Virus record (IMG/VR): IMGVR_UViG_3300032277_002987
Location: 1-38,972 of that record
DNA from: a virus
Lineage: Duplodnaviria; Caudoviricetes
Reading direction: 5' to 3' (one strand)
Length of the DNA stretch: 38,972 bases
Part shown: piece by piece, positions 15,639-37,606 of the stretch
Numbering within the stretch: position 1 is the first letter of the stretch
Layout: every line of letters begins with the position of its first letter
The notes under the pieces: generated by a model
The model's input: only the letters and a program-made list of their open reading frames with translations
Databases searched by the model: none
What the model was told of the DNA's origin: nothing
Made by a program: the position numbers and the translations under genes

Positions 15639-16763
15639 TTATTTGATGCTGCCGCCGGCGGCGATGGCCGACACGGCCCCGTTGAGTTCTGCTTCAGCGG
15701 CTGTTTCAGGTTGGGCGGCCTGCATGCCTTCGGGTGCGGCATTGGTGATGCCAGCGAGAATCAGTTTGCGGGTTTCTGCGTCGGCACCGGCAACTGATGC
15801 AGCAACCGTTACCCCAAGGGTTTTGGCTTGTTCGGCGGTAACGCCGGAATCAAGCAGAGCCTTGAACTGGGTGCCGATCTCCTCGGGGAAAACAGTCTCG
15901 ACCATGGCGAGTACGGCTGGTCCGTTGTCGGTGAATCCTTCTTTAGCCTTGGCAACGGCAGCTTCGATCTGCCCTTCTACGTCAGCTTTCGGCACCAGAC
16001 CCTGACGGGCTTCCGACTGAATGATGGCTAAAAATGTCGGGTGGTTCTTGTTCATCTGCGCAAGGAACTGCTCGATAGTCATTGCGTTTACCTCCTCTGT
16101 TTTATGTGTTTGAGAAACTGGTGGCGGACCGGCAGCAAATAGAGCGGTGTCCGGGGCCTTGTTAAATACGGATAGATCAAACTTTGCCGAAGCGGCGATA
16201 TCGACCGGGTCGATCATCTTGTCGGCGAAACCAAGCTCAAGCGCCTGACTGGCGGTCATCCAGGTTTCATCGGCCATCATCTGTTTGATGGTTTCGTGAT
16301 CGAGCCCGGTTTTGTCGTGGTAGGTGTTGACCAGCGTCTGCTTGATGCCGTCGAGAATATCGGCAACCTTGCGTAGATCGGCAGGGTTGCCACCGGCATA
16401 GGTTGACGGATCGTGGATCATCATCACCGCATTGCCAGGCATGATGATGGTGTCGCCAGCCATGGCGATGACCGAACCGATTGAGGCCGCCAAACCGGCA
16501 ACGGTCACAGTGACCTTGGCCTTGTGGCTGCGCAACACGTTGTAGATGGCGATACCGGCAAAGACGCTGCCGCCTCGGGTGTTGATCTGTAGATCGATAT
16601 CGCTGACATCGCCAAGTGCAGCCAGATCAGCAAGAAAGCTGGTCGGGGTGACATCTTCATCGACCCACTTCCAATCTTCAATATCTCCGAAAATGTAAAT
16701 CACTGCAGCGTCTGCTGACTGCGCGCGCATGCTGTAGTAGGGCTGTTTGTTTTTCTTGCTCAT
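15639..16763 (-). CDS. Head maturation protease (ClpP/S14) with C-terminal scaffold region
   Basis: INTRGGSVF, GLAASIGSVI (catalytic Ser), MMIHDP (His), ETWMTASQALELGFAD. Confidence 0.93.
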   Translation of the reverse strand: MSKKNKQPYYSMRAQSADAAVIYIFGDIEDWKWVDEDVTPTSFLADLAALGDVSDIDLQINTRGGSVFAGIAIYNVLRSHKAKVTVTVAGLAASIGSVIAMAGDTIIMPGNAVMMIHDPSTYAGGNPADLRKVADILDGIKQTLVNTYHDKTGLDHETIKQMMADETWMTASQALELGFADKMIDPVDIAASAKFDLSVFNKAPDTALFAAGPPPVSQTHKTEEVNAMTIEQFLAQMNKNHPTFLAIIQSEARQGLVPKADVEGQIEAAVAKAKEGFTDNGPAVLAMVETVFPEEIGTQFKALLDSGVTAEQAKTLGVTVAASVAGADAETRKLILAGITNAAPEGMQAAQPETAAEAELNGAVSAIAAGGSIK

Positions 16764-18292
16764 TCTGTTACCTCCTCAACAGGCCCGAACTCTTTATCCA
16801 GCCGCTGCGCCATCTCGCGCTGGTCGCGTTCTTCGCGTTCGATCTGTTCCATATGGGTGTCGTAGTCCTTTCCCTGTTCGGCCAGGCGAGCGGCCAGGGT
16901 GACTGCGTTATTCTTTCTGTCTTTGTCGAAGGCCACGGCGTCCTTGACCGGGTCGACACTGCCGCGCTTCGGACCGATCCAGTTGGTGTTGCAGTATTCG
17001 GCGCGTGCTGCGTAGAAATCGGGGCCGCCTTCGGGCAGTTCGATCATGCCGCGCAGCCAGGCTTCTTCAATGACCATTTCCCAGATCGGCTGGCAGAAAT
17101 GATTGACCATCCAGTCCTGATAAAGGGAGAAGACCCGATGCGCCTCTTGCAGTGCGGCCCGGGCGCTGGAGTAGTTTGTTTTGCTGAAATCTTTGGCGAT
17201 GACCTCGTAAGGCATGCCGGCCGAGGCACCGACAGCACGCAGGATGGTTTCGAGGAAGATGCCGAACGAATTGTTGGGCCGCTTCGAATCGAGGACATGG
17301 GGCTTTTCGCCCTGGTTGCCATAGAAGATGCCGCCTGGGGAAAGCTCGTTGTAGTTGGTGGAGCTGCCGTCGGTGTTCTGTTGGTTGAAAACGCCCATCT
17401 GTTTGGTTGCGTCGTAGGCCATCGGTCCTTTTTCGATCCAGACCGGAAAACTGGCAGCGACGATGGCACCGACCAGCTCGAAGTCGAGATAGTCGGTGAT
17501 GTCGCGAAAGAACTTCATCGCCGGGGCCAGCACCGAGGTGCCGCGGACCTGTTCGGGGAATTTTTTATGGAAGTGGTGCATAACCACCGGACGGTGGCCG
17601 CGTAAACGGGGTAATTCTTTGAAGTGACGCAGATCGAGAGTGGTGGTGATACGTCCGTCGGCCGGGTCGGCGATGAAATAGTTTATCGCTTCATTACTGG
17701 TCCCTAGGCGGATACCGTCGCGGACATCCTTTTTGCCGTTCATGCCAAACGGAGTACGCAAACGAACAGGATCGAGAATGTCGATGCACAGATTGAAACG
17801 CCGACCGGGGCGGTCTTTCATCAGCGGCAGCGCCAGGTATTCACCGTTGACCAGACGCGAGTAGATAACCTGGTACTGAATATCACCAAACTGGCTTTGC
17901 CCATCGGCACCGGCTTCTTTGCTGAAGATCCGAAAGGCCCATTCGCAGTCTTCGGCGAACTTGGCAGAGGCTTCTTGTGAAATATTCAATCGTTTCCACA
18001 ACGGCACCGACTGAGGCTTAAGCCCGGTATGCACCGAATTGTCAGCGATGGAATCGATCAGGCTGGCAGCGTGAGCATGGTTGGCGGCCAGATCGTTGGC
18101 GCGAGCGACCACGGTTTCACGCTGGCGACCCTCTTCTAGCCAGCCGATCCGGCGCGGATACCAGTTTGACAGGGTGCCAGCAGTACCAGCTCCACCGCCC
18201 GAGCGATCAACGGCAGAGGCATGAATGCCCTGCTGCCGCATGCGACCATGAGATGGATAGCTACGCCCGACACGGGCTCCCATACCGCTCAT
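16760..18292 (-). CDS. Portal protein, lambda family
   Basis: RANDLAANH, EQVRGTS, DFSKTNYSSARAAL and VDPVKDA motifs. Confidence 0.95.
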   Translation of the reverse strand: MSGMGARVGRSYPSHGRMRQQGIHASAVDRSGGGAGTAGTLSNWYPRRIGWLEEGRQRETVVARANDLAANHAHAASLIDSIADNSVHTGLKPQSVPLWKRLNISQEASAKFAEDCEWAFRIFSKEAGADGQSQFGDIQYQVIYSRLVNGEYLALPLMKDRPGRRFNLCIDILDPVRLRTPFGMNGKKDVRDGIRLGTSNEAINYFIADPADGRITTTLDLRHFKELPRLRGHRPVVMHHFHKKFPEQVRGTSVLAPAMKFFRDITDYLDFELVGAIVAASFPVWIEKGPMAYDATKQMGVFNQQNTDGSSTNYNELSPGGIFYGNQGEKPHVLDSKRPNNSFGIFLETILRAVGASAGMPYEVIAKDFSKTNYSSARAALQEAHRVFSLYQDWMVNHFCQPIWEMVIEEAWLRGMIELPEGGPDFYAARAEYCNTNWIGPKRGSVDPVKDAVAFDKDRKNNAVTLAARLAEQGKDYDTHMEQIEREERDQREMAQRLDKEFGPVEEVTE

Positions 18293-18528
18293 CGCCGAGG
18301 CCTTCCGGTCAAAACCTGCGGACCAAGACCGATAGACGTAGCGGATTTTTCGCCTTGCAGAAACCTGAGAGTGTTGCGGATCTCGGGCAGATCGGCGCGG
18401 GTGACGGTCCGACGGGTGGCACCCGTGTCGATGGCGTAAGACTGGGCACTGGCCAAGGCCAGAAGGGCCGCTTTATAGGCGGTGATCTGGGTGTCGAGTT
18501 CTGCGGTGGTGAACAGGGAAGTTGTCAT
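18289..18528 (-). CDS. Head-to-tail adaptor (gpW-like)
   Basis: 79 aa; AQSYAID...RTVTRADLPEI pattern; directly upstream of the portal gene. Confidence 0.8.
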   Translation of the reverse strand: MTTSLFTTAELDTQITAYKAALLALASAQSYAIDTGATRRTVTRADLPEIRNTLRFLQGEKSATSIGLGPQVLTGRPRR

Positions 18529-18562: not shown

Positions 18563-18598
18563 ATGGACACCGTGGACATGGTGGACACCGTGGACAAC
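18563..18598. repeat. Four tandem 9-bp repeats upstream of the head operon
   Basis: ATGGACACC GTGGACATG GTGGACACC GTGGACAAC. Confidence 0.85.
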
Positions 18599-18829: not shown

Positions 18830-19300
18830 TCATTCTTTTCCTGGTTTAAATTTCAGCTCGTTTGCTGCGGCCTTTAGTTCTGCGTAGTTATTTGCAACTT
18901 TTCCGTTACTTATCATCCATTTGAAAACGCGGTAAACATCTGTCTTTGCGCCATCCTGCCTGAGGCAGGTCGAATCATTCAGCCAAGCATAGACAATTGA
19001 CTTATCCGTCGAAGAAAATTGGAAAAAAAGCCTATAGCGATCAGGTAAACCGCCTTTAACTCTTCTCCAGGATTTATGCCGGTCGCCAAGTGTGCCACCA
19101 AGTCGAAAGTTTTTGTGATTTGGGTCCGCAGGTACAGTTTGACCAATCGCGATTCGGACCCTTTTTAGAAACTTAGATTTTTGGTGGTGTACGTATCCTA
19201 CAGGGTCTGCAGTTTGCAGCGCTTGGACGTCTCGAATGAGATCGCGAAGAATTTCTTCGAAAAGATGAAATTGATGTAGCCCCCACCCGTTAACCTGCAT
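18830..19300 (-). CDS. yhaV: Type II toxin, YhaV family (RelE-superfamily RNase)
   Basis: VNGW start, VPADP...FRLGGTLG...WRRVK...RYRLFFQFSS...IVYAWLND...LR...DVYRVF YhaV signature. Start set to ATG 19300. Confidence 0.88.
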   Translation of the reverse strand: MQVNGWGLHQFHLFEEILRDLIRDVQALQTADPVGYVHHQKSKFLKRVRIAIGQTVPADPNHKNFRLGGTLGDRHKSWRRVKGGLPDRYRLFFQFSSTDKSIVYAWLNDSTCLRQDGAKTDVYRVFKWMISNGKVANNYAELKAAANELKFKPGKE

Positions 19301-19304
19301 GGAT

Positions 19305-20180
19305 CTATAACTCCACGTCGGCAACAAGTGAGTCAATCAGTGCCATTGTTTCTTCTGAAAGGGGTGTTACCTCTCTGCCAGCCTGAATCTCTTTCCCAAC
19401 ATGCAGCATTGCCTGCTCTAATGCTTCATCTACTAAACTAATATGTAATGTTTCCATGATAGCCCCCTTAATTTTTAATTTGGTGAGTTCTTTTTCAATC
19501 TCGTAATCCAAATCAAAAACATCTACATCATCAAATGGAAATGAATATTCATATGAAATGAATGGGTCAACCCCATCAGAAACTACTCTCACCTGACATG
19601 AAACACCATAGACACCATGTGCGTGGAACAGGTTAGCTACCGCAATAACGACTGCAGATAAATCATTATCCGACAACCCATTTTGACTGATACATTCGGC
19701 AGCAGGGGTAAGAAAACCGTCGAAATCAAAAAGTTCTTTCAATTCAATTCTAGCTTCTTGAGGTATCTGCTGTGCGACAGCATAAGCTTCAGAAATCCTA
19801 CCACACTCAATTGAACGGTAAACAAGGGCGACTGCGATTTGCGGTTCTGGGTCACGCTCAAAAGTTTCTCTGATCTGTTCATAGCATTTTTGGACAAAGC
19901 CAAGGCGCCCAAGGGATGCGGCGTAATTGGCAAAAGCGTTCGGATTATTGCCGGAAGAGGTAATCCCATTTTGGTGGAATTTGTGCATCGCCTCAATATC
20001 CCGTTCAAGGCAAGCGATCGCACCCAGAACGTAATACGCGGCTGAAGGATCATCCCGGAGGAACGCTTCAGCGTCCTTTTTGAACCTGGCCAGTTTAAAA
20101 TAGTTTTTAGGATCAGAAAAACCCATACCATTCAACTGTTCAATGATTTCATCTGATTTTGTTTTTGGAACAGGACACAT
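19305..20180 (-). CDS. TPR-like protein with C-terminal PrlF-like antitoxin segment
   Basis: Helical TPR-like repeats (AYYVLGAIAC, AFANYAASLGRLG). The last 41 aa resemble the PrlF toxin-binding tail. Ends 4 nt before yhaV. Confidence 0.65.
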   Translation of the reverse strand: MCPVPKTKSDEIIEQLNGMGFSDPKNYFKLARFKKDAEAFLRDDPSAAYYVLGAIACLERDIEAMHKFHQNGITSSGNNPNAFANYAASLGRLGFVQKCYEQIRETFERDPEPQIAVALVYRSIECGRISEAYAVAQQIPQEARIELKELFDFDGFLTPAAECISQNGLSDNDLSAVVIAVANLFHAHGVYGVSCQVRVVSDGVDPFISYEYSFPFDDVDVFDLDYEIEKELTKLKIKGAIMETLHISLVDEALEQAMLHVGKEIQAGREVTPLSEETMALIDSLVADVEL

Positions 20181-20421
20181 ATTTTCTTCCCAAGTTTGGG
20201 GCAAAAATTAAGCGGCGGTGTGTAAATGATACTACCAGCACAATAAAATATCTACCCGCAGACAAAATTAGCCCCACCAAAAAAAATGGCAGAGCCCACA
20301 TTCGTCCCCTTTGATATGCCACTCTTAGTCCATATCGACCATTTAAGTCAAGAATTTAAGCCAAATTAGGACTTCTGCATGAGTTAGTCATGCCAACCCA
20401 GACCTGCGGAATCATCTACCA

Positions 20422-21626: not shown

Positions 21627-21655
21627 AGCCTAACCGAAGGCGGATGTTGTGTCAA
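21627..21655 (-). promoter_or_regulatory. Sigma70 promoter of the C4-rha operon
   Basis: TTGACA (21655-21650), 17 nt, TAGGCT (21632-21627). Confidence 0.75.
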
Positions 21656-21723
21656 AGGCAATTTGTGTTTTCCTTTTTTGTGCTGTAGATTGGCTCAATT
21701 GTATTTGCCATGGAGGGGCCCCA

Positions 21724-22410
21724 ATGCTTAGTTTTCTAAAGCGTCTACTTAACAAACCTGCAAAATCTACCAACATCAAAGTCACCGCTGTCGACAAAGA
21801 AAGAGCCCCAAGTAAAGAACCAACGCCAGCGGCGAAACCAGCCAAACCCAAATACAAGAACGGCAACGAAAAACCACCCAGCACAAGGCAGCGCGCAGAG
21901 TGTGATGCCGTCGGTTTAACCATTAGACCGAACATGACCAGCCGCGATGTTTGGCAAATGCTCAATGATGCGGTTAAAGACCCAAAGTACAAAGCCCTTC
22001 TGGATAAGCACTATGCCTACGATAACGCCCTTTCGGAAGACGATGACCGGTTCGAATACGGCAATGTACTCATTGATGAACTGAACAAGTGGGAAGAAAT
22101 TTGCTACCCGGGCCAATACCTCGTGACCTACAAAAAGGGTAAAATTCTGCGCTCTGACATTATTGAATTTGAACGCGCAGAACTTAACGAATCAGTTCAG
22201 AAGCCTTACGTTGAAATTGAAGCCTCACTACCAAAAATCAGAAAACCTCGAAATGAAGACCCCCATCTTGACTGGGATAAAGAAATTACCTTCAAGCCAA
22301 AGCAGATTCTTGAACTTAAAAAATTACCTCAAGAAATTGATATGTTCGATATCGATGGGTATGAACAAACCCTACTCGAAGCAAAAAAAACAGAAGCTAA
22401 GTATCTATAA
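21724..22410 (+). CDS. Hypothetical moron protein
   Basis: GGAGG SD, AT-rich, opposite strand to the virion genes. Small helical PPSTRQ...GLTIRPNMT module. Confidence 0.7.
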   Translation: MLSFLKRLLNKPAKSTNIKVTAVDKERAPSKEPTPAAKPAKPKYKNGNEKPPSTRQRAECDAVGLTIRPNMTSRDVWQMLNDAVKDPKYKALLDKHYAYDNALSEDDDRFEYGNVLIDELNKWEEICYPGQYLVTYKKGKILRSDIIEFERAELNESVQKPYVEIEASLPKIRKPRNEDPHLDWDKEITFKPKQILELKKLPQEIDMFDIDGYEQTLLEAKKTEAKYL

Positions 22411-22433: not shown

Positions 22434-22865
22434 ATGGTTGACCTGACCATGGTCGCAAGTGCCTTAAGTGGAATCAAAAATGCCACAGATATTGCCCAGT
22501 TTCTGAAAGGGGCAAATGCTTCACTAGACAAGGCCGAAACTAAGCTAAAAATTGCTGAACTGATATCTGCACTTGCCGATGCCAAAATAGCTATCGCCGA
22601 TGTTAAAGAAGTTATTCTTGGAAAAGACCAGAGAATTAGCGAGTTAGAACAACAACAAAGCATAAAAAGTAAAATGGTATTTGAGCTGCCATATTACTGG
22701 GTTGAAGATACTAACCGTAAAGAGGGTCCGTATTGCCAGCAGTGTTATGACAACGACAATAAGCTGATCCGTTTACAATGCCCCGACAATGATGGTTTCT
22801 GGGAATGCAAAACATGCAACAACCACTATCAGGACAAGACTGTCGACTCAAGCACGTGGAGCTAA
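22434..22865 (+). CDS. Coiled-coil plus zinc-ribbon hypothetical protein
   Basis: AGGAGG SD; N-terminal coiled coil; GPYCQQC...ECKTC zinc ribbon. Confidence 0.8.
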   Translation: MVDLTMVASALSGIKNATDIAQFLKGANASLDKAETKLKIAELISALADAKIAIADVKEVILGKDQRISELEQQQSIKSKMVFELPYYWVEDTNRKEGPYCQQCYDNDNKLIRLQCPDNDGFWECKTCNNHYQDKTVDSSTWS

Positions 22866-23296: not shown

Positions 23297-25294
23297 CTAC
23301 CTCCTGTTAAACCATGTTGGCAGGCGACTAACCGTTTGACCGGTCGACGCGGCATTGGATGTTTGTTTATGAGGTTCGGGCGCTGCTTCTTTGGGTTTCA
23401 CCAGCCGACCCTGCATTTTGAGCAATTCTATATGAAACATGCGGTATGTGGCGCAGTCGGCGTAGTCGTTACGCCCGGCGTTTTTGTCGTGGTGCCACAC
23501 CAACAGCTCATCGCGGTACTCGGAGCAGAGGTGTTTGGCGTAGTCTTCGAGTTCGTTGGCTGGCAAAATGCCGCTGTTTTTTTGCTGTTCAAGCTGGCCT
23601 TGCGTGTATCCGGAATAGAGCACGAACGCGCCGGGGTCATCGATACTGATCGCCAGACGGCGCGCGAGTTCGTCTTTGAAGTAGTGGACATCCATCACCA
23701 CCAGAATCAGCCCGCCGGGAATCGGCTTGTTGGTGCCGGGCCAGCGGTCGAGGGTGGTGTACTTGACCGGTGTGTCTTTGCGGCCGGTCCCCTTGACCGG
23801 GATAAACATGGGGTTAGCCTTGCAGAATTCGTAGACTTCTTTGGTGCGCGAATGCTTAGGCGGCATACCAGCCTTGCGCGTGCCACCGGAGTCGATGAGG
23901 GCGGATTGAATGCGGTACTCTTTTTTATCGACATCGGTCCAGGTGCGCCCGGACAGGGTGAGCAGATCGGCGAAGTTGAGCAGGTAGCCTTTGCTGATCA
24001 GGTGCGAGGTTCCGGCATCACCGTAGGCGATGGCGGCGAGTTCGTAATAGAAGCCTTCTTGCTGGGTATCGACCTGCAGGGCGAGGGCGGCGGTGCCGGT
24101 GGGGACCAGATCACGCGGGCGGTCATCGCAAAGGGCCAGGACGGCTTCATGACTAGCGACAGCTTTGGGTAGTTCGTAGTCGATGGCTTTAATACCGTGG
24201 GCCAGATCGCGCTGCGCTGAGACATCACCCTGTTTTGCCTTGAGTATGGCGATGGCGATATCGACCAACGGCACATCTGGCAGGGGGAATGCCGGCAGTA
24301 GGAATCCGACATCTACCGGGCGGGCGATATCTGCACCTTTGATGCAGACCCATTCGCCGGTATAAGCCTGTCCGCGTTTTTCTTCATCCCAACAACTTCC
24401 ACAGGCGCAGCTGTATTCAATGCAAGTTGGATCTGACTTGATGCTTTCGACGGTGGCGCCTTCGGGGATGCTGACATGATCGACATCCATGACGATCAGT
24501 TCGTCACAGTCGGGGCAGCGGGCCGCGCCGGTCCAGACTTGCACGCAGGCCATGGTCATTTTGTAGATATATTTACCTGCCGGGGTGCTGCAGAAAAAGT
24601 TTTTGGCGATGCGCTGCTTGGTGCGGGTTCGCTTTTTGATACGGGTGATGGGGTCAGCTTCTTTTCCGACCATCTTCATCTTGTCGACTTCATCGCTGAA
24701 GGTGTAACGGGCGGCAAAGGTAGCGGTGGAGGTTGTTGATCCGGAATAGGATGGCTGGATGGCCATGCCGTCGCTAAAGGTGACCAGACCAAGGGCGGTA
24801 TCATCTGCGCGGGCACTGAGGTGTTTGGATACACGTTCTGATTCTTTGAGCATGGGGATCAACTTACGCCGCATGATGTTGTCAGATGAAGTTTCATCGG
24901 GCATCTGATAAAAGATGTTGCCCGGGGCTTGATCGCGTACCCAAAAAATACAGCTGAGCATGGTGTTGGTTTTACTGGCCTGATCGACGCCACAAAAACA
25001 GACTTCACGCACCCAGGGCTGCGCCCAGGTGTCCATGACCTTGGGGGCATGTTTGGCAAACTCGATGCGGTAGGCACCGGGGTTGGCTTCGGCAGCGGGC
25101 ATGCGGCGGAACTTGACCGAGAGTTCGCTGGGGGTCATCTTCTTGGCTTTGGTGCAGCGCCGCCGCACGGGTCGCGGAATGTGCAACTGCACGAGCTGAC
25201 CGGATGCGGCTGTGCGCCAGCTGCGCGGTAACCAGATTGGCAGTTGTTGCGGGGCCTTGTTGACCAGCTGGATCTGGACGGCGGTGTTAGTCAT
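23297..25294 (-). CDS. Terminase large subunit (lambda gpA family)
   Basis: DQASKT Walker A-like, SDEVD Walker B, CSTP, CPDC, VDTQ, IDSGG, PVKG, RNDYADC. Start set to ATG 25294. Confidence 0.93.
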   Translation of the reverse strand: MTNTAVQIQLVNKAPQQLPIWLPRSWRTAASGQLVQLHIPRPVRRRCTKAKKMTPSELSVKFRRMPAAEANPGAYRIEFAKHAPKVMDTWAQPWVREVCFCGVDQASKTNTMLSCIFWVRDQAPGNIFYQMPDETSSDNIMRRKLIPMLKESERVSKHLSARADDTALGLVTFSDGMAIQPSYSGSTTSTATFAARYTFSDEVDKMKMVGKEADPITRIKKRTRTKQRIAKNFFCSTPAGKYIYKMTMACVQVWTGAARCPDCDELIVMDVDHVSIPEGATVESIKSDPTCIEYSCACGSCWDEEKRGQAYTGEWVCIKGADIARPVDVGFLLPAFPLPDVPLVDIAIAILKAKQGDVSAQRDLAHGIKAIDYELPKAVASHEAVLALCDDRPRDLVPTGTAALALQVDTQQEGFYYELAAIAYGDAGTSHLISKGYLLNFADLLTLSGRTWTDVDKKEYRIQSALIDSGGTRKAGMPPKHSRTKEVYEFCKANPMFIPVKGTGRKDTPVKYTTLDRWPGTNKPIPGGLILVVMDVHYFKDELARRLAISIDDPGAFVLYSGYTQGQLEQQKNSGILPANELEDYAKHLCSEYRDELLVWHHDKNAGRNDYADCATYRMFHIELLKMQGRLVKPKEAAPEPHKQTSNAASTGQTVSRLPTWFNRR

Positions 25295-25832
25295 CGATAA
25301 CCTCAAATTCACGTTCGCTGACGACATCTTTGACGGCATCGGTCAGCGCGGTGGTGTGCAGATCGGTGAGGCTTTGCGAGAATTCAGCTGCGCGGGAGAT
25401 TTCACCGCCGCAGATATAAATCAATTTAGTCAGACTGAGAGTGGTTTGCTGCTCGAGCGCTTCGATGATGGCACCGGCGAAAGCGGCCATCTGTTGATGG
25501 TGGTCGACAACCTCCATCCAGTTTTCATCTTCTTTGCGACCTTTGCGTTCGGCGGCTTCGGTTTCGGCTTTCAACTTACGCAGTTCATAGGCTGATTTTT
25601 CACGGGCCTGGCTGTCATCGACCATTGATTGGTTGTTTCCGGGATCTATCTCGAACTTTCTGCGCACGTAGCTAACCAGATCGACCAGCAGCACTGTCTT
25701 GTCGGACTGCACCATGTTTTTGGCGATGCAGTCGGTGTAAAACTGCGCTTTCTTCACCGGGTAGTTCCCGGGCTGGATAAACTTGGCAAAAGCCTCGGCG
25801 CGGGTCTTATAGGCTTGCTGAATTTCGCTCAT
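25287..25832 (-). CDS. Terminase small subunit (Nu1-like)
   Basis: Directly upstream of terL; ELRKLKAETEAAERK coiled coil typical of Nu1. Confidence 0.7.
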   Translation of the reverse strand: MSEIQQAYKTRAEAFAKFIQPGNYPVKKAQFYTDCIAKNMVQSDKTVLLVDLVSYVRRKFEIDPGNNQSMVDDSQAREKSAYELRKLKAETEAAERKGRKEDENWMEVVDHHQQMAAFAGAIIEALEQQTTLSLTKLIYICGGEISRAAEFSQSLTDLHTTALTDAVKDVVSEREFEVIDD

Positions 25833-34669: not shown

Positions 34670-35086
34670 ATGAAAGATATTTCGCAAGTCATAGCAAGGA
34701 TGGTTCAAGCACTTGGGTGTAAGAATGAAGCCCAAATGCTTAGAATGATTGAGCTATCTACCGGGGCGGCGTCGAACTGGAAAAAGCGGGGAGAGGTCCC
34801 TTTTAGCGCGATAAAAAGCGTATCTGGACTCACGGGATGTTTAGTTGACTGGATTCTTACTGGAAAAGGCGAAATGCGTCCAGGTGAAGCAACTGACAAA
34901 ACCGATCTAAAAACCATGCGCGCCGTGATCGAAGCCGTCGAAGAACACCTGCAAGCCGAAGGCTTGCAGCTACCACCAGCCAAAAAAGCTGAGTTGATCA
35001 CAACGCTCTATGAAATGTTTTCAGAAGAAGAGGGTAGGGCGGTCGACAAAAAAACCGTCGCCAAGCTGATTAAGCTGGCGAGTTGA
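34670..35086 (+). CDS. CI-like phage repressor (HTH; no S24 peptidase domain)
   Basis: AASNWKKRGEVP...VDWILTGKGEM matches the phage CI-repressor HTH; divergent from the early operon. Confidence 0.85.
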   Translation: MKDISQVIARMVQALGCKNEAQMLRMIELSTGAASNWKKRGEVPFSAIKSVSGLTGCLVDWILTGKGEMRPGEATDKTDLKTMRAVIEAVEEHLQAEGLQLPPAKKAELITTLYEMFSEEEGRAVDKKTVAKLIKLAS

Positions 35087-35100
35087 TGGAGGGGGCGCAA

Positions 35101-36657
35101 ATGTACACAGATTGGAAAACGAAGAAAAACTACTCGCCCAAGTCGATTCGACTTGACGCAAAAAACCCACGACTACACGACGTCCCAGGCAATTCCAACC
35201 AGGGCGTTATCGCCAACCTACTTCTTTCACAATACAACAGAGACATCCGTTCAATTGCCAAAAGCATAGTTGAAAAGGGTTACTTTCCTCACGAGGATAT
35301 CCTTCTAATTGAGGAAAGAAAAAAGCTTGTAGTTGTCGAGGGCAATTGTCGTATCTGTGCCTGCCTTGTGCTGCTCAATCCAGGGGTTGCTAAAGACCCG
35401 CGTGATAAAAATCATTTCACTCGGCTTGCACGAAAACTTCCTGAGCCAGCCAAAAATAGTTTTAAGAAAATTCCATGCTCAATCGCCCCGAGCCGTGAAC
35501 AGGCATATATTCTGATTGAAAGCCGCCACACTAGTGCGCCTATCAACCCGTGGACACCGTATGCGCAAGGCAATTTCTATCGATCACTACTGATTGAGGG
35601 CCGGTCTATTCAAGAGCTATCGGAAGAATTTAACCGTCCCGCTTCTGACATCAGAGGGAAGATAAGGGTTACAGGGGTCAGCGACATCATAATGCATCTA
35701 CCCGAAGCCTCGTTAAATCCAGGCGAATACACTGTAGATGTTAAAAAGACTGGCGAGGCGGCCGCCATCATTCTCCGCCTACTTCAAAGCAAAGAAGCCC
35801 AGAAATTCTTCGGGCTTAAGATCGATATGAACGACGTGGGTAATCTCTTAAGCAATGTATCTGAAGAGGATTTTCTAAGGGTCCTGTCCTCACTTGCGAA
35901 AGATGCTTTATTGAACAAGAGTACCAACGGCAAACCAATTATAGACACTCGGATCCTCAATGATGAAGACGGTCGAAAGGCATATTTAGCGAAATACTCT
36001 GGGGATATGCCACAGGGTAAGAGTGGGCACAGCTTTAACAGTGAAACATTTTTGGGTCGAGGGAAATCACAATCGGGGACAACGTCTGGTGATGGTGATA
36101 GTGCTTCTGGCACCGAGCCTAAACCTAAGACTAAGCGCCCGACCGATCAGTGGCTTATAAATCCGAACGTTGAAATTATTATCAAAAACGAAAAGGTTCG
36201 TGCCCTTGTTGGGGAGGCTCAAAGACTCAAGTGGAGCTCATTCCCACATACGGCCGGGCTACTCCTAAGAGCAATAATTGAATGCTCACTGAAATCCCGA
36301 ATGAAAGATTTGGGATTATGGAATGGAGTTGTCAAAGCCAATAAAGGAAACCCAGTCGTAGGTCTTAGTAAATTGATCGCGCAAACATTTGTCCATAAAA
36401 CGGTCTTAGACGATGCTGAGTTGTATGAGGGTTTCAAGAGTGACTTCCATACTGCTGCTGGCAACAAAAGGTTCAAGCTTGTTCTTGATTTCATCCAGCA
36501 CAATGACCAACATAGAATAACCAAGGAGGATCTTGGAGAAATACGCACAAGGACAGAGGCCCTTATTCGGCACCTTGTTGATACACTTCCTGCAATTGCA
36601 TCAAACTCTACTAGTTCGACAGACCCTTCTGTTGAAGTAGAGACCGAGCCTGCTTAG
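35101..36657 (+). CDS. ParB/Srx-like N-terminal domain plus HEPN-like C-terminal domain protein (candidate defence effector)
   Basis: LDAKNPRL, IAKSIVEKGY and VVEGNCR (ParB-like); AGLLLRAIIE...LDFIQHN (HEPN-like). GGAGG SD before ATG 35101. Confidence 0.7.
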   Translation: MYTDWKTKKNYSPKSIRLDAKNPRLHDVPGNSNQGVIANLLLSQYNRDIRSIAKSIVEKGYFPHEDILLIEERKKLVVVEGNCRICACLVLLNPGVAKDPRDKNHFTRLARKLPEPAKNSFKKIPCSIAPSREQAYILIESRHTSAPINPWTPYAQGNFYRSLLIEGRSIQELSEEFNRPASDIRGKIRVTGVSDIIMHLPEASLNPGEYTVDVKKTGEAAAIILRLLQSKEAQKFFGLKIDMNDVGNLLSNVSEEDFLRVLSSLAKDALLNKSTNGKPIIDTRILNDEDGRKAYLAKYSGDMPQGKSGHSFNSETFLGRGKSQSGTTSGDGDSASGTEPKPKTKRPTDQWLINPNVEIIIKNEKVRALVGEAQRLKWSSFPHTAGLLLRAIIECSLKSRMKDLGLWNGVVKANKGNPVVGLSKLIAQTFVHKTVLDDAELYEGFKSDFHTAAGNKRFKLVLDFIQHNDQHRITKEDLGEIRTRTEALIRHLVDTLPAIASNSTSSTDPSVEVETEPA

Positions 36658-36742
36658 TGAAGCAATACCAAGTAAATATTTGGTGGCCGCCGGCTCCTTT
36701 CTTTGCTACGATGCCCCTAATTACTGAATTAGGGGAAATCTA

Positions 36743-37606
36743 ATGCGATACAAAACACCACTGCGTTATCCAGGCGGCAAAGCCAAGCTTGCACCTTATA
36801 TCAAGCTTATCCTGGAAGAAAATTTTCTCCTTGACGGCCACTATGTGGAGCCATTCGCTGGTGGGGCCGGTATCGTTTTTGATCTGCTATACAACGAATA
36901 CGTATCGCATGCTCATATCAACGATCTCAACCGGCCAATTTATTGTTTTTGGGATGCCGTGCTGAACCATACAGACGAGCTTTGTCGCCTCATACGAGAT
37001 ACGCCCGTAACGATGGAAGAATGGCACCGGCACAAAGCAATCTACAAAACGCAGGATGACCAAACGGATTTTGATCTTGGATTTACAACGTTTTTTCTCA
37101 ACAGAACAAATCGTTCAGGCATTATCGGAGGTGGCGCAATCGGCGGGCTTGTCCAAACAAGTGAATGGGGTGTAGACGCCAGGTTCAATAAACAAGATCT
37201 TATTGCCCGTATTGAGAAAATTGCCACATATCGAAGCAGGATCTCGCTGTACAACCTGGATGCTAAAGATCTGTTGCGTAACGTGGTGCCAGGGTTGCCA
37301 GATAAAACTTTGGTCTACCTTGACCCTCCATACTATGTGAAGGGCAAGGCGCTATATCAAAATCATTTCATCCACGAAGACCATGTGTCACTCGCAGAGG
37401 TCGTGACGAACGATATCCGCCAAAACTGGATCGTTTCCTATGACTTTGAGCCAGTGATCAGCGATATATATAGCGAGTTCAGGCAGATTGATTACCAATT
37501 AAGCTACACCGCGGCCAAACGATCAAAAGGGTCAGAGTTGATGGTGTTTGATGATGCGCTCGTGATCCCTGATGTTGCGAGCCCTGCGAATGTTAAGGTG
37601 GCATAA
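36743..37606 (+). CDS. D12-class N6-adenine DNA methyltransferase
   Basis: TPLRYPGGKAKL, YVEPFAGGAG, LNRTNRSGI and DPPY motifs. Confidence 0.93.
   Translation: MRYKTPLRYPGGKAKLAPYIKLILEENFLLDGHYVEPFAGGAGIVFDLLYNEYVSHAHINDLNRPIYCFWDAVLNHTDELCRLIRDTPVTMEEWHRHKAIYKTQDDQTDFDLGFTTFFLNRTNRSGIIGGGAIGGLVQTSEWGVDARFNKQDLIARIEKIATYRSRISLYNLDAKDLLRNVVPGLPDKTLVYLDPPYYVKGKALYQNHFIHEDHVSLAEVVTNDIRQNWIVSYDFEPVISDIYSEFRQIDYQLSYTAAKRSKGSELMVFDDALVIPDVASPANVKVA

What the first reader, a model, noticed from the sequence alone, without database searches (positions are those of the whole stretch)
18830..20180. Candidate new system: YhaV RNase toxin guarded by a TPR-sensor protein fused to a PrlF-like antitoxin tail
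Seen: a clear YhaV toxin lies 4 nt downstream of a 291-aa protein made of TPR-like helices, an acidic alpha/beta middle domain, and the tail DEALEQAMLHVGKEIQAGREVTPLSEETMALIDSLVADVEL (19305-19430). Known: YhaV is normally neutralised by PrlF/SohA, a small protein with an AbrB DNA-binding domain and a C-terminal toxin-binding segment of pattern D...FL..L..DI......P.......I..LV..V.(L/V). The tail fits that pattern by eye, yet no AbrB domain or separate prlF gene is present. Inference: the autoregulatory domain has been replaced by a protein-recognition module. Binding of a phage or host trigger to the TPR part could release YhaV and cause abortive infection, conceptually like CapRel or other sensor-gated TA defences. 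Its location in a prophage moron hotspot fits this idea.
Basis: partly seen in the sequence, partly recalled or inferred. Interest (0 to 1): 0.85.

Follow-up and report, generated by a model that had tools for sequence, protein, structure and literature searches.

The report
TPR-fused antitoxin guarding a YhaV RNase
A prophage carries a gene for an RNA-cutting toxin directly behind a gene for a helical-repeat (TPR) protein that ends in a piece resembling the toxin's usual antidote; the pair recurs in other phages and bacteria, and the repeat protein likely holds the toxin in check until it meets a trigger such as a phage protein, which is untested.

Summary
An intact YhaV toxin gene (Pfam 137 bits) lies 4 nt behind a 291-aa TPR + alpha/beta protein, in a low-GC insert between terminase and portal genes of a provirus.

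The tail is homologous to the PrlF C-terminus at family level (profile-profile probability 98%, controls at most 1.4%), but only weakly in this protein alone.

The pair is not a one-off: eight further TPR-yhaV loci were found, plus a single-chain fusion. The TPR protein belongs to a large unnamed family (869 representatives). Tail-less members often precede a HEPN gene, and one short member precedes a Fic/Doc gene. The PrlF-like tail scored in 0 of 82 tail-less members and 29 of 68 others.

So the TPR scaffold seems to swap toxins by swapping its C-terminal piece, and probably gained the PrlF tail, rather than PrlF losing its AbrB domain. The middle domain may be a dead nucleotidyltransferase (weak evidence).

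I found no description in the papers or defence catalogue searched.

The parts
19305..20180 (-). 291-aa putative antitoxin (P0001): TPR region, alpha/beta domain, PrlF-like tail
19683..20180 (-). TPR-like helical region, residues 1-166
   Evidence: AlphaFold helices; family-level TPR hits; weak Foldseek matches to PilF and OGT, E 0.01 or worse
19428..19670 (-). acidic alpha-beta-beta-alpha-beta domain, residues 171-251; possibly a catalytically dead minimal nucleotidyltransferase
   Evidence: weak, tied with other small folds
19305..19430 (-). PrlF-like C-terminal tail, residues 251-291 (two helices; the last about 20 residues are the conserved part)
18830..19300 (-). YhaV-family RNase toxin gene, 156 aa (P0002), intact
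20226..20296 (-). promoter-like site (20254-20226, 9 of 12 matches) and upstream terminator-like hairpin (20296-20270); both at chance frequency
   Evidence: 3 promoter-like sites found against 3.2 expected; 2 terminator-like against 2.3 expected

Best explanation
The two genes form a recurrent antitoxin-toxin-type cassette in which the PrlF-like tail of the TPR protein likely binds and blocks the YhaV RNase, and the TPR part likely acts as a trigger-binding switch that would free the toxin during infection by another phage. SHOWN: gene order and 4-nt spacing; intact YhaV; TPR + alpha/beta + tail anatomy; family-level homology of the tail to the PrlF C-terminus; recurrence of the pair; the same TPR family beside other toxin-type genes when its C-terminus differs. 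FROM ESTABLISHED KNOWLEDGE: YhaV is a ribosome-dependent mRNase held by PrlF (PMC7781912, passages). INFERRED: (1) the tail neutralises YhaV, about 0.85; (2) with no recognisable DNA-binding domain the cassette is not autorepressed in the PrlF way and is controlled at protein level, about 0.7; (3) the TPR region binds a foreign protein, or is displaced or degraded because of one, so that YhaV is released and translation stops, about 0.5; (4) the scaffold pre-existed beside a HEPN gene and gained tail plus yhaV, about 0.65, with MNT ancestry of the middle domain about 0.5.
For: Tail homology: the profile of 26 long-form tails matches a profile of 38 canonical PrlF tails at probability 98.2, E 4.6e-14, against at most 1.4 for 12 other windows of the same alignment. 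Among the best 150 representatives the canonical-tail HMM scores in 0 of 82 members without an extension, 17 of 35 with one and 12 of 33 lacking the middle domain. Seven relatives hit Pfam PrlF_antitoxin at their tail, all below the cut-off. Recurrence: 6 of 100 yhaV loci have a TPR-family gene directly upstream; two more, L123 and L106, were found from the TPR side and have yhaV next. P0059 joins TPR, middle domain, PrlF tail and YhaV in one chain. The six long-form YhaVs group together with one context-less protein (support 80/73). Toxin swapping: 8 of 10 viral HEPN loci have a family member upstream; L165 has a short member before a Fic/Doc gene. Phage context: L018 and L021 lie just after a gpA terminase gene as here, L020 between lysozyme and RusA genes, L123 beside terminase small-subunit genes. 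The same prophage carries a PD-Lambda-5_A match.
Against: No experiment exists. For P0001 alone the tail score is low (6.7 bits) and Pfam PrlF does not hit; tails of L018, L020, L021, L023 and L025 do not beat shuffles. The 26 rows of the tail profile were picked by eye, partly after seeing scores, so one search is partly circular. 26 of 34 bacterial tail-less loci have no recognised toxin neighbour, so the scaffold can persist without one. L023, L025 and L085 show no phage genes in the flanks read. No family member matches a PADLOC model convincingly (best E about 1e-4, scattered). In the fusion P0059, known from one contig, the YhaV motifs are altered. AbrB-less PrlF tails are common without any TPR, so a sensor is not needed for such a pair to persist.
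Confidence: 0.5

Rival explanations
1. It is a true toxin-antitoxin pair, but the TPR and middle domains only stabilise or carry the tail. The cassette works as an addiction or prophage-maintenance module released by antitoxin turnover, with no specific sensing.
For: Bare tails of 63-73 aa sit before yhaV in 21 of 100 loci, and 9 more have unrelated N-termini. Three long-form loci show no phage neighbours.
Against: The same 150-residue TPR region is kept across different toxin partners and in forms that lack the middle domain, which a mere carrier would not need. TPRs are the proposed sensors in other defence proteins (PMC9122126, passage).
Confidence: 0.3
2. The TPR protein and YhaV stay together as one effector complex that is switched on by a ligand or host state (stress signal, protease, nucleotide bound by the middle domain), not by a phage protein; it may regulate lysogeny or dormancy.
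For: The middle domain resembles small ligand-binding and nucleotidyltransferase folds about equally. A group of tail-less orthologues is kept without a recognised toxin.
Against: About a fifth of representatives lack the middle domain yet often keep the tail. No nucleotide-binding motif is conserved.
Confidence: 0.12
3. The pair is a decayed or chance arrangement: the tail no longer binds YhaV, or YhaV is inactive.
For: Weak single-sequence tail score; first tail helix divergent here and missing in P0004, P0046, P0047 and L023.
Against: Both frames are intact, YhaV keeps invariant residues, and the pair recurs at 24-46% antitoxin identity.
Confidence: 0.08

Closest known systems
PrlF-YhaV (SohA-YhaV) type II toxin-antitoxin system of E. 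coli (PMC7781912, passages seen; PF15937/PF11663)
   Same: Same toxin family, antitoxin-toxin gene order, homologous antitoxin C-terminal segment.
   Different: No AbrB-type DNA-binding domain; the antitoxin is 291 aa with TPR and alpha/beta domains; PF15937 cut-off not reached; promoter autoregulation not expected.
HEPN-MNT modules, including PADLOC candidate PDC-M05 (nucleotidyltransferase + HEPN per PMC12988326, passages seen)
   Same: Tail-less relatives precede small HEPN genes, two of which weakly match PDC-M05B; the middle domain aligns weakly with MNT.
   Different: No GS or DxD catalytic motif, a TPR region is added, and in this window the partner is YhaV, not HEPN.
Sensor-gated toxin-antitoxin defences: CapRel (recalled) and HigBAC/TAC, where a phage tail protein frees the toxin (PMC11980606, passage seen)
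   Same: Proposed logic: prophage-borne translation toxin held by a partner that responds to a phage protein.
   Different: No sequence relation was seen; sensing and defence are demonstrated there and only inferred here; the putative sensor is a TPR region.
Promiscuous antitoxin networks, NetFlax (PMC10440598, term search in main text); Panacea (recalled)
   Same: One antitoxin-side domain paired with several unrelated toxins.
   Different: The NetFlax text has no occurrence of YhaV, PrlF or tetratricopeptide; here the toxin-specific part seems to be a swapped C-terminal piece.

Membership tests
PrlF-YhaV type II TA | YhaV-family toxin (PF11663) | tested here: met
   136.8 bits, cut-off 35; invariant residues kept
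PrlF-YhaV type II TA | antitoxin gene directly upstream, same strand | tested here: met
   4-nt gap; recurs in eight further loci
PrlF-YhaV type II TA | AbrB-type N-terminal DNA-binding domain in the antitoxin | tested here: not met
   N-terminus is all-helical TPR; no PF15937 hit
PrlF-YhaV type II TA | PrlF C-terminal segment | tested here: met
   Family level: probability 98.2, class contrast. Weak for P0001 alone: 6.7 bits, 0 of 1000 shuffles
PrlF-YhaV type II TA | complex formation and neutralisation of toxicity | not testable with these tools
PrlF-YhaV type II TA | autorepression at a promoter palindrome | not tested
   no DNA-binding domain recognised; no binding test possible
HEPN-MNT module | MNT (Pol-beta-type) fold in the antitoxin | tested here: inconclusive
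HEPN-MNT module | GS and DxD catalytic motifs | tested here: not met
   column conservation over 110 rows shows neither
HEPN-MNT module | HEPN partner gene | tested here: not met
   partner here is YhaV; HEPN follows tail-less relatives only
Sensor-gated TA phage defence (CapRel, TAC kind) | activation by a phage protein and protection against phage | not testable with these tools
   no assay possible
Sensor-gated TA phage defence (CapRel, TAC kind) | accessory position in prophages | tested here: met
   window, L018, L020, L021, L123; the first four come from virus records by selection; not seen for L023, L025, L085

The most novel reading that the evidence does not exclude
A widespread, unnamed family of TPR sensor-antitoxins works as a plug-and-play immune switch: one TPR region detects a phage protein and controls whichever toxin follows (HEPN, YhaV, Doc, perhaps RelE types) through an exchangeable C-terminal piece, having arisen from a HEPN-MNT pair whose MNT lost catalysis.
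Probability: 0.33. Interest if true: 0.82.

Novelty: new variant of a known kind. Interest (0 to 1): 0.68.

Why it matters
What activates most type II toxin-antitoxin pairs is a long-standing open question. This family offers a natural swap series: the same TPR region with or without the middle domain, and with different tails and toxins. Sensor and neutraliser can therefore be separated, and tail swaps give a direct test of how antitoxins are rewired. If it defends, it adds a family of hundreds of sequence clusters that the catalogue searched (PADLOC 2.0) does not recognise, and gives YhaV a first trigger; the review read lists its stress trigger as unknown (PMC7781912).

Tried and rejected
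Complex prediction of YhaV with the tail was not available, so there is no structural verdict on binding.

Searches that found nothing: tblastn of P0001 and of P0056 against the phage and plasmid collections; viral scans with P0002 alone and with the 3-row alignment; solved YhaV structures by sequence.

Foldseek of the middle domain listed OsmC and cation-efflux C-terminal domains and no nucleotidyltransferase among the rows shown; this does not exclude MNT. The wide structural search was run for the middle domain only, not for the whole model.

Promoter and terminator matches are at chance level. The test of one clade for all TPR-linked YhaVs did not finish. No RNA holder was listed for the locus. 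Four look-ups in earlier scan findings by words and one by sequence gave nothing on this family.

The hit rate (95 of 301) is not a frequency: strong hits fall in about every fourth genome of the sample and weak ones are generic TPRs. HMM calls of HEPN neighbours are circular, because the profile came from those loci; the HEPN label rests on weak Pfam hits for L126, L140, L148 and L158 and on similarity for the rest.

Literature: ten full-text searches listed no paper describing a TPR antitoxin for YhaV or this TPR-HEPN pair; tetratricopeptide + antitoxin + YhaV gave 0 papers. I saw listings and term passages only. The original PrlF-YhaV paper is not held. A figure legend of PMC13092281 labels a TPR domain in some validated system that I could not identify from three supplement look-ups; it could be a relative. 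Subscription papers and bioRxiv supplements were not visible.

Full report
1. What is in the sequence. The window is a provirus record, 59% complete, with a gpA-type terminase gene at 23297-25339, a lambda-type portal at 16760-18292 and a head-tail adaptor at 18289-18528. Between them, on the same strand, lie a 291-aa gene (P0001, 19305-20180) and, 4 nt later, a 156-aa gene (P0002, 18830-19300). GC is 0.43 at 19001-20000 against 0.54-0.58 in the head genes. P0002 is YhaV (136.8 bits, cut-off 35) and keeps the residues invariant in 23 aligned relatives. No PrlF gene is in the record; the host chromosome is not held.

2. Anatomy of P0001. Alone it hits no family model. AlphaFold on 110 relatives gives mean pLDDT 95.2: ten helices at 8-166, an alpha-beta-beta-alpha-beta domain at 171-251, and tail helices at 252-266 and 276-286 with pLDDT near 90. 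The helical part is TPR at family level: 51 of 110 members hit TPR_14 and the profile finds consensus TPR structures.

3. Is the tail PrlF-like? I built a profile from the tails of 38 canonical AbrB-type antitoxins found before yhaV; it also scores 39-44 bits on three further PrlF genes found later. It hits P0001 at 271-290 with 6.7 bits (0 of 1000 shuffles), P0003 with 13.9, P0004 with 16.1 and L085 with 11.4, but not L018, L020, L021, L023 or L025 above shuffles. Of 3722 real ORFs, 82 reach 6.7 bits; the 15 in the printed band up to 30 bits are all genes before yhaV, and the 67 higher ones were not printed. Profile against profile, 26 long-form tails give probability 98.2 and 22 short-form tails 97.3, while 12 other windows give at most 1.4; these rows were chosen by eye, partly after seeing scores. 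A contrast free of that choice: among the best 150 of 869 representatives, the tail profile scores in 0 of 82 members that end after the middle domain, 17 of 35 with an extension and 12 of 33 without the middle domain. Seven relatives hit Pfam PrlF_antitoxin at the tail, below its cut-off. The first tail helix is divergent in P0001 and missing in P0004, P0046, P0047 and L023, so the last helix is the likely binding element (inference).

4. Does the pair recur? From the toxin side I read 100 yhaV loci: 20 viral and the best 80 of 216 genomic. By my reading the upstream gene is an AbrB-type PrlF in 58, a bare tail protein in 21, another N-terminus on the tail in 9, a TPR family member in 6, and absent or cut in 6. 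From the TPR side, L123 and L106 were new, and both have yhaV next; the other four metagenome hits were the window's own contig and copies or near-copies of L023 and L025. In a sample of 401 genomes, 8 have YhaV over the cut-off: 5 with canonical PrlF, 2 with TPR (one is the centre genome), 1 broken. P0059 is a single-chain fusion of all parts, from one contig and with altered toxin motifs. In a 57-row YhaV tree the six long-form toxins group with one context-less protein (80/73), and three short-form toxins group apart (99/92, long branches).

5. The wider family. Tail-less members of about 250 aa match unknown-function PHROGs 17809, 22649 and 9890. Of 34 bacterial loci of this form, 7 precede a small HEPN-type gene, 1 a PDC-S39 gene and 26 no recognised toxin; none precedes yhaV. 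Searching viral contigs from the HEPN side, 8 of 10 loci have a family member upstream and 0 of 10 a canonical MNT; the query came from TPR-adjacent HEPNs, so this is enriched. L165 has a short member with another tail before a Fic/Doc gene. The C-terminus thus changes with the toxin while the TPR region stays.

7. How it most likely works. YhaV cuts mRNA on the ribosome and is normally held by PrlF, which also represses the promoter (PMC7781912, passages). Here the holding segment is kept and the DNA-binding domain is not, so control is likely at protein level. I infer that the tail neutralises YhaV (0.85) and that the TPR region is the switch, binding a foreign protein and freeing the toxin (0.5). 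Phage positions fit this: L018 and L021 follow a gpA terminase as here, L020 and L123 lie in lysis or packaging regions. Against it, L023, L025 and L085 show no phage flanks, bare tails do without a sensor, and many tail-less members have no toxin. The main rival is a plain addiction module with a stabilising scaffold (0.3).

8. Comparison and novelty. It works like PrlF-YhaV but fails the AbrB criterion, and it is not a HEPN-MNT system. No PADLOC model recognises the family. Ten literature searches listed no description; I saw passages of seven papers by term search: PMC11980606 (no TPR mention), PMC9122126, PMC13092281, PMC3710099, PMC10440598, PMC12988326 and PMC7781912. An unidentified TPR-labelled system in PMC13092281 could be a relative. 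Verdict: a real, recurrent new variant of type II toxin-antitoxin architecture, within a larger toxin-swapping family; sensing and defence are plausible and untested. Interest 0.68.

Noticed in passing
window 35083-37606 (+): 524-aa gene matching PD-Lambda-5_A (E 3e-38) followed by a D12-class adenine methyltransferase, downstream of the repressor gene: a known type of defence pair in the same prophage.
   Followed up: partly
window 21649-22410 and 22434-22865 (+): Two low-GC genes on the opposite strand in the same terminase-portal interval; 253 aa without any family hit, 143 aa matching phrog_1244 of unknown function. Possible further accessory genes.
   Followed up: no
window 18564-18596: Three 9-nt-spaced copies of a short repeat just upstream of the head-tail adaptor gene; function unknown.
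   Followed up: no
L003-L017, L029, L038, L069, L078, L097, L101: 63-73-aa genes consisting of little more than a PrlF-like tail, with a shared ELLEG-type end, before yhaV; 15 of 20 viral yhaV loci.
   Followed up: partly
L024:2606-2995, L027, L028, L030, L033, L043, L045; L052, L086: PrlF-like tails behind other, non-AbrB N-termini (110-130 aa unknown; 101-108 aa DUF104-like, label recalled) before yhaV.
   Followed up: partly
L165:1013-1980 (-): Short TPR family member with a different helical tail directly before a Fic/Doc gene; P0115 and P0188 end similarly.
   Followed up: partly
P0163, P0054, P0058, P0189; P0098, P0155; P0173: Family members with other C-terminal pieces that by eye recall RelB/YefM-type, TumA-type and HicB-type antitoxin segments (labels recalled, no Pfam support, no context).
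   Followed up: no
L228-L237: TPR + alpha/beta gene before a small HEPN gene in 8 of 10 viral loci; L232 and L233 have another N-terminus; a relative occurs in 1 of 5426 E. coli genomes.
   Followed up: partly
L127-L154 (most): A conserved-looking group of tail-less family members with no recognised toxin neighbour, in many genomes of one sample: possibly a domesticated orthologue.
   Followed up: no
L155:1423-3765: Family member directly before a PDC-S39 / DUF7380 gene (E 1e-127).
   Followed up: no
P0059: 448-aa single-chain TPR-middle-tail-YhaV fusion with altered YhaV motifs, one contig only.
   Followed up: partly
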